The notes beneath the pieces were generated by a model that was not told where the DNA came from, searched no databases, and worked only from the letters and a program-made list of their open reading frames with translations. Of a stretch of 64,000 nucleotides of DNA, positions 5,119 to 6,675 are shown piece by piece. How positions within the stretch are numbered: the stretch's first letter is position 1; every line of letters starts with the position of its first letter. The stretch is from a virus. The stretch lies in UHGV virus genome UHGV-0133741. One strand, 5' to 3'. The translations under genes and the position numbers were made by a program.

Positions 5119-5139
5119 TAAATTTATTAGTGTAATATC
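5109..5139 (+). promoter_or_regulatory. C1 operator overlapping a sigma70-like promoter
   Basis: Perfect 17/17 operator ATTGCTCTAATAAATTT (5109-5125); TTGCTC(-35)-17 bp-TAATAT(-10) promoter overlaps it, pointing rightward into the tRNA/ban region. Confidence 0.6.
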
Positions 5140-5299
5140 GCCTCAATGAATCGTTATTTATAGAGCGATTTAGCTGTTAGCCGCGACAGGCGCGGCGGTA
5201 AGCATGGCTGGCCCTAGTCCTCCCAGACAAACCACCGAGTTGCCAGGTTGACCATGCGCCTAAGTGGCAACGCCGAAGTGCGTTACGAGCTTCCAGTTT

Positions 5300-5326
5300 G
5301 CCCATCTTCGGGTGGGCGTTTTTTTC
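5300..5326 (+). terminator. intrinsic terminator / attenuator hairpin
   Basis: GCCCATC-TTCG-GGTGGGC hairpin (7 bp stem, UUCG loop) followed by GTTTTTTTC; about 160 nt downstream of the promoter at 5111-5139. Confidence 0.5.
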
Positions 5327-5790
5327 AGGGTTTTCGTCATGGTTAGCGACTTTGCGGCGGTTTAGAAACTGACCATTAAAGTAAATGCAAACGATGATCT
5401 GATGATGGTAGCGGCCTAAGAAGCCAGACGCCACGGGGTATGAGTCGTCCCCCGTCAAAAAATCGACCGCAGAGTGTCCCCGTCTGTGTATTAGGGAACG
5501 GGGAGGCACAACAGGTAAGGGCGCTGGTGTGATTAACCAGATGAACGAGAAGGGGCCATCTGTTGGTCAGCGTCCTTTCCTGTTGCGTCTTCTTTTCAGC
5601 GTAACAGCGGTGCTTAACAGCACTTTGGGTACAGTTCCACGAATTTACGGGTATATCCCGTCATGCTGAAAGCGCTAATCACGCTGGAAGCCAGGGTTAT
5701 GCATCCCCTGTTACCGAATTGCAGCCAGGGCGCGGTGCGCCGAAAAGCATACGGAGGTGGAAGCCCTCGCCGGAGACGTACCCGGCAAGT

Positions 5791-5866
5791 GATGGTGTAG
5801 CTCAGCGGTTAGAGCGGTTGACTGTTAATCAACGGGTCGATGGTTCAAATCCATCCACCATCGCCA
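5791..5866 (+). tRNA. tRNA-Asn (anticodon GTT)
   Basis: 76 nt cloverleaf built by hand: acceptor GATGGTG/CACCATC, D-arm GCTCAGCGGTTAGAGC, anticodon loop CTGTTAA, T-arm GATGG-TTCAAAT-CCATC, 3' GCCA. Confidence 0.85.
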
Positions 5867-5868
5867 AT

Positions 5869-5944
5869 GCCGGTTTAGCTCAGTTGGTAGAGCGCCTGTC
5901 TTGTAAGCAGGATGTCAGCGGTTCGAATCCGTTAATCGGCACCA
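5869..5944 (+). tRNA. tRNA-Thr (anticodon TGT)
   Basis: 76 nt; acceptor GCCGGTT/AATCGGC, anticodon stem CCTGT/GCAGG with loop CTTGTAA, T-loop TTCGAAT, 3' ACCA. Confidence 0.85.
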
Positions 5945-5952
5945 GCACAACA

Positions 5953-6028
5953 GGTAAGGGTATTTTGCGACGTCGGAGATCGCCGAGCTTGGCAGAGGGT
6001 TCGAATCCCTACGAAGTACCCTTACCGT
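5953..6028 (+). other. tRNA-like degenerate element (possible tRNA pseudogene)
   Basis: Outer stem GGTAAGGGTA/TACCCTTACC encloses a D-arm-like GCGA..TCGC and an intact T-arm AGGG-TTCGAAT-CCCT, but the acceptor is bulged and there is no CCA. Confidence 0.3.
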
Positions 6029-6675
6029 TGTGAGGAAGTGCAGCTCTTTGAAGCAACCAGAAGATAAGCATCTGGCTTCACAACATAAACCGCAGGAACG
6101 ACCAATAAACGGTAGTCCGTATGGAGAACACCCCGTTGAGGAAGAGGCCTGGCCGGAACCGTAACCGGCACTACAACGTTGAGAACACTGGCGTAACGGG
6201 GTCATATCCCAATCTACGAATAAATGTTGCGTTGCAGCGTGACAACCAGTGTTCTCAACATTGTGGTGAATGCACAGGCTGATGTGCCGCAACTACAGTA
6301 GTGCGCGCTTTGCGGGGCTTGCTACAACCCTGTGTCGGAGTTCAGCACCGACCATCACAGTTTGATTCTCTGGCATGAGCATAACGCTGAAATAAGTCCA
6401 GCATGGTGCGGCCCGATCACCCGCCGTTAGCTCCACGAAACGGAGCACGTAACAGGTAAGAGCATTCTCCTGTAACGGGTTCATATCCCAATCTACAGGT
6501 CCACCAAGAATGCTCTTTCCGTTGCGGTGAATGCGGCTAAGCGCACGCGGGGAAATGGTTATATCTGTCCATTATTTCTCCTTGCTTCCCCGTCCACGGT
6601 GGATAACCAGCCAAAGGACACCGGGAGGCACCCGGCACCGAAGCTTTTTTATTCGTTAAATAATGGAGTGAGAGG

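What the first reader, a model, noticed from the sequence alone, without database searches (positions are those of the whole stretch)
5119..6675. About 1.3 kb of non-coding sequence around the tRNA genes containing decayed tRNA-like hairpins and a C1-controlled leader
No convincing ORF exists between dmt and the membrane-protein gene apart from the two tRNAs. A perfect C1 operator overlaps a sigma70-like promoter (5109-5139) and a UUCG-loop terminator lies about 160 nt downstream (5300-5326), predicting a short repressor-controlled RNA or attenuated leader. Further on there are repeated units beginning ACAGGTAAG(G/A)G (5511, 5949, 6451), two 11-bp perfect inverted repeats (GAGAACACTGG/CCAGTGTTCTC at 6181/6246; AAGAGCATTCT/AGAATGCTCTT at 6459/6508), and T-arm-like cores. 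These could be tRNA pseudogenes or tRNA-derived structured RNAs.
Basis: seen in the sequence. Interest (0 to 1): 0.5.

Follow-up and report, generated by a model that had tools for sequence, protein, structure and literature searches.

The report
Phage P1 tmRNA-like tag RNA cassette
The "empty" 1.5 kb around the phage P1 tRNA genes is an array of structured RNAs, one of which closely resembles the peptide-tag-coding half of bacterial tmRNA without its tRNA-like half and recurs unannotated in hundreds of enterobacterial phages.

Summary
The C1 operator and promoter are the published P1 Op72/Pban, the terminator is real, and the repeats are the arms of four long, stable hairpins.

"Decayed tRNA pseudogenes" is only partly right. 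Window 5327-5505 holds a module homologous to the coding piece of permuted (two-piece) tmRNA:
- a start-less frame GCA AAC GAT ... GCC TAA encoding ANDDLMMVAA;
- the stop codon inside a hairpin;
- a covarying pseudoknot directly after it.

A covariance model built only from non-P1 phages hits it at 99.6 bits (E 4e-18). The family occurs in P1-like and SSU5-like phage-plasmids, HK620, N4-like and ViI-like phages and others. It shows 23 tag variants, nearly all 10 codons long, with codon-periodic variation. It is unannotated nearly everywhere I looked.

No canonical tRNA-like domain accompanies it. ARAGORN and Rfam are negative, and HK620 has no tRNA-like gene at all. The hairpins are conserved frames with swappable caps. 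Hairpin II carries a closed tmRNA-TLD-like cap.

Best reading: a tmRNA-derived RNA cassette expressed in lytic growth, whose tag frame is translated. How it reaches the ribosome is unknown. No description was found in the searchable literature.

The parts
5109..5138 (+). Bivalent C1 operator (Op72a 5109-5125 on +, Op72b 5120-5136 on -) overlapping promoter P1ban (-35 at 5110-5115, -10 at 5133-5138). Already known.
   Evidence: Sequence read; P1 GenBank annotation mapped; palindrome I3.
5139..5298 (+). Leader specific to the P1/P7 type. P1's annotated 'dicF-like region' corresponds to window ~5232-5333. D6-type relatives carry unrelated sequence here.
   Evidence: No Rfam DicF hit.
5299..5326 (+). 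7-bp hairpin GCCCAUC-UUCG-GGUGGGC followed by a U-run. It is an intrinsic terminator and also the 5' hairpin that precedes the tag module in every family member. It occupies the position of the acceptor stem of permuted tmRNA.
   Evidence: terminator scan. Searches show the hairpin present but different in sequence in other phage groups. One search shows homology to D6 starting at ~5297.
5327..5386 (+). 5' part of the tag module: CAGGGUUUUCGUC, then GCGACUUUGCGG, UUUAGAAAC (an in-frame UAG 8 codons upstream), ACCA, and UAAAU just before the resume codon. By inspection, CAGGGUUUUCGUC aligns with the D-loop / P2a region of permuted tmRNA.
5387..5419 (+). Tag reading frame GCA AAC GAT GAT CTG ATG ATG GTA GCG GCC TAA, encoding ANDDLMMVAA*. 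It has no start codon and no Shine-Dalgarno sequence.
   Evidence: Tag-region similarity to Rfam tmRNA_permuted and beta_tmRNA.
5420..5505 (+). 3' part of the tag module. Hairpin CGGGG 5434-5438 with CCCCG 5450-5454. Its loop GUCG 5444-5447 pairs with CGAC 5464-5467 to form a pseudoknot. A further hairpin joins CCCCG 5478-5482 and CGGGG 5499-5503.
   Evidence: Covariation. CM hit 5346-5473 at 99.6 bits.
5504..5590 (+). Long hairpin I: base ACAACAGG-U-AAGGG paired with CCUU-U-CCUGUUG, and a cap containing CUGGUGUGAUUAACCAG.
   Evidence: I2; z -4.3; compensatory changes in D6.
5591..5790 (+). Spacer with small hairpins (ACGGGUAUAUCCCGU; GCCGG-N8-CCGGC four nt before tRNA-Asn). From window ~5647 on it is nearly identical in P1, P7 and D6.
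5791..5944 (+). tRNA-Asn(GUU) 5791-5866 and tRNA-Thr(UGU) 5869-5944.
5946..6033 (+). Long hairpin II. Its cap is tmRNA-TLD-like: D-loop-like GCGACG, the mini-hairpin UCGGAGAUCGCCGA, and a T-arm AGGGUUCGAAUCCCU. The acceptor end is closed by the long stem and no CCA is present.
   Evidence: I5, D3; z -5.5; same cap in six non-P1 loci directly after the tag module. The cap is replaced in P7 and Ro157.
6034..6168 (+). Spacer module. 6019-6084 is 94% identical in Klebsiella SSU5-like phage-plasmids. It contains the local hairpin GAAGCAACCAGA paired with UCUGGCUUC, and GCCGGAACCGUAACCGGC.
6169..6268 (+). Long hairpin with base ACAACGUUGAGAACACUGG paired with CCAGUGUUCUCAACAUUGUG. The cap contains the minihelix motif GUAACGGGGUCAUAUCCCAAUCUAC.
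   Evidence: I1, D2; z -7.5. Compensatory variant GAGACCACUGG / CCAGUGGUCUC in pJN2-26.
6408..6446 (+). T-arm-like hairpin (GCGG 6408-6411 with CCGC 6421-6424) followed by a closed acceptor-like hairpin AGCUCC-ACGAAAC-GGAGC. It resembles the E. coli tmRNA 3' end GCGGGUUCAACUCCCGCCAGCUCCACCA.
   Evidence: By eye. Homologue with a compensated stem (GCCAG / CUGGC) in the late leader of a Klebsiella prophage. No significant Rfam hit.
6449..6527 (+). Long hairpin III. The cap is CCUGUAACGGGUUCAUAUCCCAAUCUACAGG followed by UCCACCA. P7 and D6 carry a tRNA-Ser segment in this region instead, and the T-arm-like core is deleted in Ro157.
   Evidence: I4, D2; z -5.9.
6525..6650 (+). Segment resembling the STnc100/PasD family of prophage sRNAs, with a terminal hairpin and U-run. 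It marks the end of the non-coding array.
   Evidence: 35 bits against a gathering score of 47, E 3e-5. Family background from bioRxiv 10.64898/2026.05.13.724894.

Best explanation
The region is the untranslated 5' part of the C1-repressed ban-operon transcript. It is a cassette of separable structured-RNA modules interleaved with tRNA-Asn and tRNA-Thr.

The key module (5299-5505) derives from the coding piece of a permuted, two-piece tmRNA. It consists of:
- a hairpin where the acceptor stem would sit;
- a D-loop/P2a-like GGUUUUCGUC;
- a pseudoknot-rich spacer ending in UAAAU;
- a start-less 10-codon frame GCA...GCC UAA (ANDDLMMVAA);
- the stop codon inside a hairpin;
- a pseudoknot directly after it.

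The surrounding long hairpins share a conserved stem frame (ACAACAGG-U-AAGRG paired with CYCUU-W-CCGUUGUG). They carry interchangeable caps, some of them tmRNA-TLD-like or tRNA-like but closed and without CCA.

Inferred mechanism:
1. During lytic growth the transcript reads through the 5299-5326 terminator.
2. It is cut into pieces by host tRNA-processing enzymes and probably RNase III at the long stems.
3. The tag module serves as a template that ribosomes decode from the GCA codon, as on tmRNA. This gives a phage-specific tag that keeps the AND start of ssrA tags but ends in VAA, MAA or AVA instead of LAA.

Shown: homology, structure, codon-level constraint and distribution. Inferred: processing and translation. 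Unknown: how the template reaches the ribosome without a canonical alanine-accepting tRNA-like domain.
For: 1. Family membership. CM R1, built from 55 sequences with no P1-type member, hits window 5346-5473 at 99.6 bits (E 3.8e-18). This is the only significant hit in the 64 kb; the next is 8.8 bits, E 4.4. It also hits P1, P7, D6, HK620, BUCT541 and pJN2-26.

2. Homology to tmRNA.
- The sub-threshold Rfam hits that fall on the module in six independent loci (window, L003-L006, HK620) are to tmRNA families: tmRNA_permuted at 20-34 bits, plus beta_tmRNA or tmRNA in five of the six.
- The search pattern derived from the phage module also retrieved permuted tmRNAs called by ARAGORN (L190, L273, L311). 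In these the acceptor strand and D-loop (GGGGGUG AA CUGGGAUCGA) directly precede UUUUCGUG...UAAAU GCN AAC GA.
- R1 finds their coding pieces weakly, at 18.7 and 15.4 bits.

3. Structure.
- 95.9% of cells are paired, against 32-43% when partners are slid.
- 10 pairs show double changes, in 124 cells.
- 0 of 500 shuffles reach the observed value on four of the five measures; on the count of further pair types 264 of 500 do.
- The pseudoknot dinucleotides covary: GA/TC in 72, AG/CT in 11, AA/TT in 4, with one exception.

4. Coding constraint.
- 141 of 142 unique modules have exactly 10 codons plus a stop.
- There are 23 peptides, all fitting A-N-[DE]-x-x-hydrophobic-x-[AMVI]-[AV]-A apart from one ...VAP variant.
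- At codons 1, 2 and 3 the nucleotide states per codon position are [1,1,2], [1,1,2], [1,1,3]; at codons 9 and 10 they are [1,2,4] and [2,1,4].
- The stop is UAA in 139 of 142, and 25 have a double stop.
- In the four sequence types I checked by eye, no AUG/GUG/UUG lies in frame between the conserved upstream UAG and the resume codon, although rare starts (CUG, AUU) do occur in the P1 type.

5. Distribution.
- At least 240 IMG/VR contigs.
- Hundreds of GenBank phages from unrelated families.
- 562 of 5426 complete E. coli genomes carry the P1 type, and 135 of 5426 carry the HK620 type in chromosomal prophages.

6. Context points to lytic expression.
- In P1 the module lies downstream of the C1-controlled Pban.
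- In HK620 and in a Klebsiella prophage the equivalent modules lie in the late leader between pR'/qut and the lysis genes.
- In virulent phages it lies within tRNA clusters.

7. Hairpins. The stems are stable and covary while the caps differ.
Against: - No canonical tRNA-like domain.
  - ARAGORN finds no tmRNA in the window or in any typical family locus.
  - Rfam tmRNA models stay below their gathering scores.
  - HK620 has the module but no tRNA or tmRNA gene anywhere in its genome.
- The TLD-like caps cannot be charged as they stand. They lack CCA, have U.G rather than G3.U70 at the 3:70 position, are closed by the long stem, and are lost in P7 and Ro157.
- I found no acceptor-strand partner for the module's 5' region (manual search only).
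- Complementarity to E. coli tmRNA does not exceed that of shuffled controls.
- The module lies downstream of an intrinsic terminator, so its expression in P1 depends on read-through. No other promoter-like site was found between 4900 and 8200.
- I have no transcript, processing or peptide data.
- Some third-position variation in the last codons also fits the hairpin that contains the stop codon. RNA structure therefore explains part of the pattern.
Confidence: 0.5

Rival explanations
1. Decoy or sponge. The tag module and the closed TLD-like hairpins are untranslated mimics. They titrate trans-translation factors (SmpB, RNase R, ribosomal protein S1) and so dampen host tmRNA activity during lytic growth. 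The TLD-only tmRNA of mycobacteriophage DS6A is thought to act this way.
For: - The TLD-like caps are closed and cannot be charged, which fits a binding-only role.
- No canonical TLD accompanies the module.
- tmRNA's last codons and helix 5 are elements needed for RNase R engagement (PMC4176180, title and abstract only).
Against: - An untranslated decoy would not need a fixed 10-codon length, an invariant in-frame stop, GCN/GYN final codons using all four third bases, or conservative D/E and A/V exchanges.
- The TLD-like cap is dispensable in P7, Ro157 and HK620.
Confidence: 0.25
2. Relics. The region holds decaying fragments of an ancestral phage-borne permuted tmRNA and of tRNA genes. They were shuffled by recombination at the repeated stems and have no present function beyond acting as spacer and terminator. 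This is essentially the first reader's 'decayed pseudogenes'.
For: - tmRNA-like pieces are scattered and incomplete: an acceptor-like hairpin at 5299-5318 and a T-arm plus closed acceptor at 6408-6446.
- Caps are swapped or deleted between close relatives.
- The TLD is absent.
Against: - The frame is intact in 141 of 142 unique modules across unrelated phage families at ~70% DNA identity.
- Compensatory changes are extensive.
- The P1 type is nearly invariant across ~10% of complete E. coli genomes.
- Pseudogenes would accumulate indels and premature stops.
Confidence: 0.1
3. Leader and processing function only. The hairpins and module are cis-acting elements (attenuator, RNase III/E/P sites, stabilisers). 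They control ban expression and the maturation of the embedded tRNAs, and the tag-like frame is incidental.
For: - The region lies between Pban and ban.
- The terminator sits ~170-190 nt after the promoter.
- The long stems (about 14-23 nt per arm, with a mismatch) resemble phage RNase III sites. This is general knowledge, not tested here.
- GCCGG-N8-CCGGC hairpins precede tRNA-Asn and the long hairpins.
Against: - The same module occurs with no downstream tRNA or ban homologue, as in the HK620 late leader.
- It is sometimes upstream and sometimes downstream of the hairpins and tRNAs, as in Pylas compared with P1.
- Codon periodicity is not explained.
Confidence: 0.1
4. Missed protein genes. 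The minus-strand ORFs annotated in P1 as plp (window 5915-6292) and upl (6293-6484) are real and explain the conservation.
For: P1's GenBank record annotates them, and several derived records copy the annotation.
Against: - There are no Pfam matches.
- plp overlaps tRNA-Thr on the opposite strand.
- Ro157c2YLVW has a ~190-nt insertion inside 'plp'.
- P7 and D6 replace the upl region with a tRNA-Ser segment.
- Conservation follows the + strand hairpins, which contain G.U pairs and have lower + strand energies.
Confidence: 0.03

Closest known systems
Permuted (two-piece) tmRNA of Alpha- and Betaproteobacteria, cyanobacteria and some phages (Rfam RF04321, RF01849, RF01850)
   Same: - Region order: D-loop/P2a-like UUUUCG, pseudoknot region, ACCA...UAAAU, then the GCN AAC GA tag frame.
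- A ~10-11-codon tag, AND...(A/V)A.
- The stop codon lies in a hairpin and is followed by a pseudoknot.
- A hairpin sits where the acceptor stem and intervening segment sit in the permuted gene.
   Different: - No T-arm, no G3.U70 acceptor stem and no CCA-ending acceptor piece.
- Scores are below the gathering thresholds (20-34 bits against 47).
- In P1 the 'acceptor' hairpin is a 7-bp UUCG-capped terminator.
- It occurs in phages of Enterobacterales, plus one Acinetobacter phage record, whose own tmRNA is one-piece with the tag ANDENYALAA.
TLD-only tmRNA of mycobacteriophage DS6A
   Same: It is a phage-encoded partial tmRNA, one half of the molecule retained without the other. The closed TLD-like hairpin II resembles this idea.
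   Different: - The P1 module is the complementary half: tag frame and pseudoknots without the TLD.
- The P1 TLD-like cap has no free acceptor end.
Complete phage tmRNAs (mycobacteriophage cluster C, Bacillus phage G; viral contig L190 here)
   Same: Phage-borne, often next to tRNA clusters, presumably supporting translation during infection.
   Different: Those are detected by ARAGORN and have full TLDs. The P1-type module is not detected and has none.
Bacterial Y RNA-like YrlA
   Same: It shares the design of a long closing stem capped by a tRNA-like domain. This is a resemblance from general knowledge.
   Different: - The only Rfam YrlA hit falls on the two tRNAs, at 27 bits against a gathering score of 69.
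- Here the T-arm sits next to the 3' strand, the standard tRNA order.
- I did not look for an Rsr/Ro partner.
P1 ban-operon control region (Op72ab/Pban, 'dicF-like region', trnA, trnT) as annotated in NC_005856
   Same: Identical features at 98.6% DNA identity.
   Different: - The annotation contains no RNA feature for the tag module or the hairpins, and places plp and upl on the opposite strand.
- The window carries a small membrane protein plus an SPFH lipoprotein where P1 has tciABC.

Membership tests
tmRNA (one-piece or two-piece) | Internal tag reading frame without a start codon, beginning at a GCN resume codon and encoding an AND...AA-type degron | tested here: met
   Frame 5387-5419 encodes ANDDLMMVAA*. 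Family-wide there are 23 variants, 141 of 142 unique modules have 10 codons, and variation is codon-periodic.
tmRNA (one-piece or two-piece) | Stop codon inside a helix (helix 5) and pseudoknots flanking the frame | tested here: met
   Helices and the pseudoknot are supported by covariation.
tmRNA (one-piece or two-piece) | tRNA-like domain: T-arm, 7-bp acceptor stem with G3.U70, 3' (A)CCA | tested here: not met
   ARAGORN is negative. The 5' hairpin has no adjacent T-arm. The TLD-like caps are closed, carry U.G at 3:70 and lack CCA. HK620 has no tRNA-like gene at all.
tmRNA (one-piece or two-piece) | Reaches the Rfam gathering score of a tmRNA model | tested here: not met
   In the window, tmRNA_permuted scores 24.1 against 47 and beta_tmRNA 14.1 against 84. 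Five other family loci score 20-34 bits: L003-L006 at 33-34 and HK620 at 20.1.
tmRNA (one-piece or two-piece) | Alanylation, SmpB and EF-Tu binding, tagging of stalled nascent chains | not testable with these tools
   Needs biochemistry or proteomics.
Phage tag-module family defined here (CM R1) | Full-length match to a covariance model built from non-P1 members | tested here: met
   99.6 bits, E 3.8e-18, model positions 1-128 of 128 at window 5346-5473.
tRNA genes or pseudogenes (the hairpin caps) | Cloverleaf recognisable by tRNA models | tested here: not met
   Only 5791-5866, 5869-5944 and 7748-7823 are called. No tRNA hit with E<=5 falls on hairpins I-III or on 6169-6268. Hairpin II does share the 11-nt T-arm core with tRNA-Thr.
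DicF sRNA | Match to Rfam DicF | tested here: not met
   No DicF hit at E<=5 between 4900 and 8200. The label comes from the P1 GenBank record.
STnc100/PasD prophage sRNAs | Reaches the Rfam RF02076 gathering score | tested here: inconclusive
   35 bits against 47, E 3.1e-5, at 6525-6640. The 3' stem and terminator match well and the middle matches poorly.
P1 C1 operator / Pban | 17-bp C1 operator consensus overlapping the annotated promoter hexamers | tested here: met
   ATTGCTCTAATAAATTT at 5109-5125, collinear with P1 Obanab/P1ban.

The most novel reading that the evidence does not exclude
The module is a functional 'tmRNA without a tRNA half'. Its tag frame would then be decoded by a route not yet described. 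Three possibilities:
- It pairs in trans with an unrecognised acceptor RNA.
- It hijacks the host Ala-tmRNA/SmpB entry step and substitutes its own template.
- A pseudoknot mimics a tRNA and places the GCA codon in the A site, allowing start-codon-independent entry.

In each case phages would rewrite the host degradation tag during lytic growth. The phage tags end in VAA, MAA or AVA rather than LAA.
Probability: 0.2. Interest if true: 0.95.

Novelty: new variant of a known kind. Interest (0 to 1): 0.8.

Why it matters
tmRNA has been treated as an indivisible pair of functions, tRNA-like and mRNA-like. Surveys list phage tmRNAs only in a few actinophages and Bacillus phage G, plus one TLD-only case.

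Here the mRNA-like half alone is under clear purifying selection in hundreds of phages of E. coli, Salmonella, Klebsiella and relatives. These include the model phages P1 and HK620. About 10% of complete E. coli genomes carry the P1 type.

If the frame is translated, there is an unknown way of delivering a tag template to ribosomes, and phages re-label stalled-ribosome products. If it is a decoy, phages widely target ribosome rescue.

Either way three things follow:
- The question becomes testable in the best-developed genetic systems.
- A long-standing blank in the P1 map, including the doubtful plp and upl ORFs, is explained.
- A new RNA family is available for annotating phage and prophage 'non-coding gaps' next to tRNA genes and in lambdoid late leaders.

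Tried and rejected
- Canonical tmRNA or tRNA. ARAGORN and Rfam were run on the window and on about 25 related loci. Only ordinary tRNAs were found, apart from L190, L273 and L311.
- Acceptor piece upstream, in the 'dicF-like' leader. Rejected because there is no T-arm or CCA and the leader is absent from D6-type relatives that keep the module.
- Acceptor piece in 5640-5790, or hairpin III's ...CAGGUCCACCA. Pairing with the module's 5' strand is poor. Hairpin III is missing in P7 and D6 and its core is deleted in Ro157. I checked the pairing by eye only.
- Strand swap between the hairpins flanking the module, to close a P2-like helix. This is possible in HK620-type loci, where both hairpins share the GGUAAGAGCAUU stem. 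It is not possible in P1 or the N4-like phages, so it is not general.
- Pairing with host tmRNA. Unrestricted duplex energies against E. coli ssrA fall within the shuffled distribution: P1 -176.8 against -160.9 +/- 9.3 (minimum -188.9), HK620 -157.7 against -161.3. My first version of this script timed out.
- Upstream ORF, bypass or re-initiation. An in-frame AUG GUU ... UAG mini-ORF exists only in the P1 type and is not conserved, so I dropped the idea (read).
- ssrA attP relic as the origin of the tmRNA 3'-end-like piece at 6408-6446. The homologous piece in a Klebsiella prophage lies in the late leader, not next to an integrase.
- Genome-contig scan. The pattern was too loose and nearly all hits were chance, apart from three alphaproteobacterial tmRNAs.
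- YrlA, DicF and miRNA-type Rfam hits are sub-threshold noise.
- Literature. Seven full-text searches found no description of a tag-only tmRNA-like element in P1, HK620, N4-like or ViI-like phages. The P1 genome paper could not be opened.

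
Full report
**Identity of the window and check of the observation**

Window 5100-6700 is 98.6-99% identical to phage P1 and P1-like phage-plasmids.

- The C1 operator ATTGCTCTAATAAATTT lies at 5109-5125. A second, inverted operator lies at 5120-5136.
- Both coincide with P1's annotated bivalent operator Obanab (former Op72ab) and promoters P1ban/P2ban, which control the ban operon.
- The generic promoter scan does not call this site, so the promoter rests on the P1 annotation.
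- A 7-bp UUCG-capped hairpin followed by a T-run is found at 5299-5326.
- ACAGGTAAGRG occurs three times (5511, 5950, 6452) against 0.04 expected.
- The 11-bp inverted repeats are the cores of four long hairpins: 5504-5590, 5946-6033, 6169-6268 and 6449-6527. Their folding z-scores run from -4.3 to -7.5 and their energies are lower on the + strand.
- Only tRNA-Asn and tRNA-Thr pass tRNA models.
- P1's record places two ORFs, plp and upl, on the opposite strand. They have no Pfam match, plp overlaps tRNA-Thr, and both are interrupted or replaced in close relatives.
- P1's record also labels ~5232-5333 a 'dicF-like region'. The Rfam DicF model does not hit it.

**The unexpected element**

A sensitive DNA search showed that window 5329-5504 is ~72% identical to unannotated DNA in unrelated virulent phages. 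These are ViI-like Ackermannviridae of Erwinia, Serratia and Salmonella, and N4-like Schitoviridae. The match always lies in large non-coding gaps beside tRNA genes.

Inside it is ...UAAAU GCA AAC GAU GAU CUG AUG AUG GUA GCG GCC UAA, which reads ANDDLMMVAA-stop. The E. coli tmRNA tag is ANDENYALAA.

The homologues read as follows:
- ANDNEFKVAA
- ANDDVVLMAA, with GCAGCC in one genome and GCUGCU in another
- ANDNAYLMVA
- ANDEKFLMAA

Sub-threshold Rfam hits fall on the module in six independent loci (window, L003-L006, HK620). They are to tmRNA_permuted at 20-34 bits against a gathering score of 47, plus beta_tmRNA or tmRNA in five of the six.

**Size and spread of the family**

- Two pattern scans of IMG/VR each hit the 120-contig limit.
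- BLAST of two representatives found 349 and 242 GenBank phage records. The matched queries included flanking sequence.
- Members include HK620 (P22-like), 46-48-kb Klebsiella phages, Cronobacter and Salmonella phages, Sashavirus and one Acinetobacter phage. The matched region is nearly always unannotated.
- The SSU5-like phage-plasmid pJN2-26 carries a diverged copy with the tag ANDNQYLAVA.
- In complete E. coli genomes, the P1 type is present in 562 of 5426, with 585 of 596 sites on plasmids. The HK620 type is in chromosomal prophages of 135 of 5426, including O26:H11 strain 11368. RefSeq annotates nothing there.

**Is the tag frame really a coding frame?**

Among 142 unique modules, 141 have exactly ten codons plus a stop. 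There are 23 different peptides. All but one rare ...VAP variant fit A-N-[D/E]-x-x-(F/Y/M/V/I)-x-[A/M/V/I]-[A/V]-A.

- Codons 1-3 vary only at the third position.
- The last two codons are GYN GCN, using all four third bases.
- The stop is UAA in 139 of 142, and 25 have a second stop directly after it.
- In the four sequence types I checked by eye, no AUG/GUG/UUG lies in frame between a conserved UAG eight codons upstream and the GCA. Rare starts (CUG, AUU) do occur in the P1 type.

This is the pattern of a translated tmRNA-type frame. Part of the third-position variation also fits base pairing, because the end of the frame sits in a hairpin.

**Structure**

I aligned 55 non-P1 members (A2) and tested a model with these elements:
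- the frame's 3' end and stop codon inside a hairpin;
- a second hairpin directly after it;
- a pseudoknot between that hairpin's loop and the downstream strand.

The results:

| Measure | Observed | Control |
|---|---|---|
| Cells paired | 95.9% | 32-43% with partners slid |
| Pairs changed on both sides | 10 | 1-5 with partners slid |
| Cells changed on both sides | 124 | 1-38 with partners slid |
| Shuffles reaching observed value | 0 of 500 on four of five measures | 264 of 500 on further pair types |

The two variable pseudoknot positions covary almost perfectly: GA/TC in 72, AG/CT in 11, AA/TT in 4, with one exception.

A covariance model built from this alignment contains no P1-type sequence. 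It finds window 5346-5473 at 99.6 bits (E 3.8e-18). This is the only significant hit in 64 kb; the next scores 8.8 bits, E 4.4.

**Relation to genuine tmRNA**

My search pattern also retrieved permuted tmRNAs that ARAGORN recognises: two alphaproteobacterial MAGs and one viral contig, L190.

- In these, the acceptor 5' strand and D-loop (GGGGGUG AA CUGGGAUCGA) directly precede UUUUCGUG.
- The spacer then ends ...GACCAAAAACAAUAAAU GCU AAC GAU.
- The phage module's CAGG(G)UUUUCGUC ... ACCA ... UAAAU GCA AAC GA is collinear with this.
- R1 finds those coding pieces weakly, at 18.7 and 15.4 bits.

The module is therefore best described as the coding piece of a permuted tmRNA. A simple or variable hairpin replaces the acceptor/TLD end. 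In P1 that hairpin is the UUCG terminator hairpin. In N4-like phages it is a 15-bp helix with a 50-75-nt variable cap, which covaries (GAGUACA/UGUACUC against GAGCACC/GGUGCUC). In HK620-type loci it is a GGUAAGAGCAUU-type long hairpin.

**What is missing**

No canonical tRNA-like domain exists.

- ARAGORN and Rfam find none.
- HK620 carries an intact module (ANEEMYLAVA) in its late leader between pR'/qut and a terminator, yet has no tRNA or tmRNA gene anywhere.
- I found no convincing acceptor partner in the window.
- Complementarity to E. coli ssrA does not exceed shuffled controls.

**The hairpins**

They share a frame: ACAAC-A-GG-U-AAGRG... paired with ...CYCUU-W-CC-GUUGUG, usually followed by GUGAAUGC.

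- The distal stem differs between hairpins but stays complementary. Examples are GGCGCUG/CAGCGUC, GGUAUUU/AAGUACC, AGCAUUC/GAAUGCU and CUGCUUG/CAGGCAG.
- The caps are exchanged between close relatives. Hairpin II's cap differs in P7 and Ro157, and hairpin I's cap differs between two Ackermannviridae.
- Compensatory changes occur in D6 and pJN2-26.

Hairpin II's cap resembles a miniature tmRNA TLD. It has a D-loop-like GCGACG, a short hairpin and a T-arm with the core GGUUCGAAUCC.

- The same cap follows the tag module directly in six non-P1 loci.
- An Erwinia phage carries a closer tmRNA look-alike, AGAGUCGAAGG...GCGGGUUCAACUCCUGC.
- All of these caps are closed by the long stem, lack CCA, and mostly carry U.G rather than G.U at the 3:70 position. 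As they stand they cannot accept alanine.

Window 6408-6446 is a T-arm-like hairpin followed by AGCUCC-ACGAAAC-GGAGC. It resembles the tmRNA 3' end with the acceptor closed. Its homologue in a Klebsiella prophage has a compensated stem and lies in the late leader.

**Expression context**

- In P1 the array lies downstream of the C1-repressed Pban and of an intrinsic terminator.
- In lambdoid phages it lies downstream of pR' and a terminator-like hairpin, so it needs Q antitermination.
- In virulent phages it sits among tRNA genes.

All three point to expression during lytic growth. This is an inference; I have no transcript data.

**Interpretation**

- The identity of the module as a tmRNA-coding-piece relative under selection is well supported. 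I put this at about 0.85.
- That its frame is translated is the most economical reading of the codon pattern. The overall best explanation is scored 0.5.
- How a template without a tRNA-like domain reaches the ribosome is unknown.
- The main rival is a decoy that titrates SmpB or RNase R, by analogy with the TLD-only RNA of phage DS6A (PMC4131195; PMC11915505). It explains the closed TLD-like caps but not the coding constraint.
- Pure decay, a processing-only role and hidden protein genes fit the data worse.

**Novelty**

- tmRNA surveys list phage tmRNAs in mycobacteriophages and Bacillus phage G, plus the TLD-only DS6A. The 2025 database update counts 79 phage sequences and rejects truncated forms.
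- Seven full-text searches found no description of a tag-only tmRNA-like element in these phages.
- The library is incomplete, and I could not open the P1 genome paper. A prior mention therefore cannot be excluded.
- The operator, promoter, tRNAs and 'dicF-like' label are already known.

Noticed in passing
window 6676-7720: Downstream of the RNA array the window encodes a 78-aa membrane protein and a 275-aa lipoprotein with an SPFH/Band 7 domain (Pfam E 1e-30). P1 has tciA/tciB/tciC at this position. Ro157c2YLVW shares the window's arrangement.
   Followed up: partly
window 7748-7823: ARAGORN calls a third tRNA as tRNA-Met(CAU). P1 annotates the equivalent gene as trnI (tRNA-Ile2, presumably lysidine-modified). 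It lies just upstream of ban (8103-9473).
   Followed up: no
window 6525-6650: Sub-threshold match (35 bits against 47, E 3e-5) to STnc100, a prophage sRNA family recently linked to PasD. It ends in a hairpin plus U-run at the end of the non-coding array. A similar weak hit occurs in phage PD205 (L004 3413-3528).
   Followed up: partly
L069 (~11590-11720) and L004 2483-2612: N4-like phages encode a ~130-nt tRNA-like RNA that no tool calls. It has acceptor strands UACUGGU / ACCAGUA (compensated to UACCAGU / ACUGGUA in PD205), a T-arm GGAGGUUCGAAUCCUUC, an encoded ACCA end and a ~90-nt insert.
   Followed up: no
L190 8619-9050 (IMGVR_UViG_3300006071_000029): A complete permuted tmRNA (tag ANDNESIALAA) on a 40-kb viral contig next to several tRNA-Gln and tRNA-Ser genes. 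It is the closest genuine tmRNA to the phage tag modules that I found.
   Followed up: partly
L003 1130-3190 (Erwinia phage phiEa2809): A stretch of ~2 kb that the record leaves without any CDS (apart from what looks like a small unannotated ORF near its start). It carries three copies of a promoter-like repeat (..TTCAATAAG..GCAGTATAGTTA..), a ~480-nt GC-rich segment (1440-1920) whose structure and identity were not examined, the tag module, and TLD-like hairpins.
   Followed up: no
window 5527-5543; L367 2645-2672; many family members: A conserved hairpin-loop motif UGUGAUUAA(UAA) recurs. It sits in the hairpin that ends HK620-type modules and in the cap of P1 hairpin I. It is complementary to 7 nt of E. 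coli tmRNA (UUAAUCA), which may be chance.
   Followed up: no
window 5770-5787, 6148-6165, 6334-6351; L367 ~2840-2866: Small GC hairpins (GCCGG-N8-10-CCGGC) recur 3-4 nt upstream of tRNA-Asn and of long hairpins. In HK620, P7 and D6 they are followed by CACCACAG, which in the window has become CAUCACAG. They may be processing signals or degenerate T-arm/CCA mimics.
   Followed up: no
window 5915-6484, minus strand: The P1 genes plp and upl, copied into many P1-like annotations, are probably not genes. They overlap tRNA-Thr and the + strand hairpins, have no Pfam match, and are disrupted in Ro157c2YLVW, P7 and D6.
   Followed up: partly
window 6034-6100 compared with 5417-5472: The spacer after hairpin II repeats motifs of the tag module's 3' part (GAAGC(AA)CCAGA; UCAAAAAAUCGACCGCAG against UCACAACAUAAACCGCAG). 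It may be a degenerate second copy. R1 does not detect it.
   Followed up: partly
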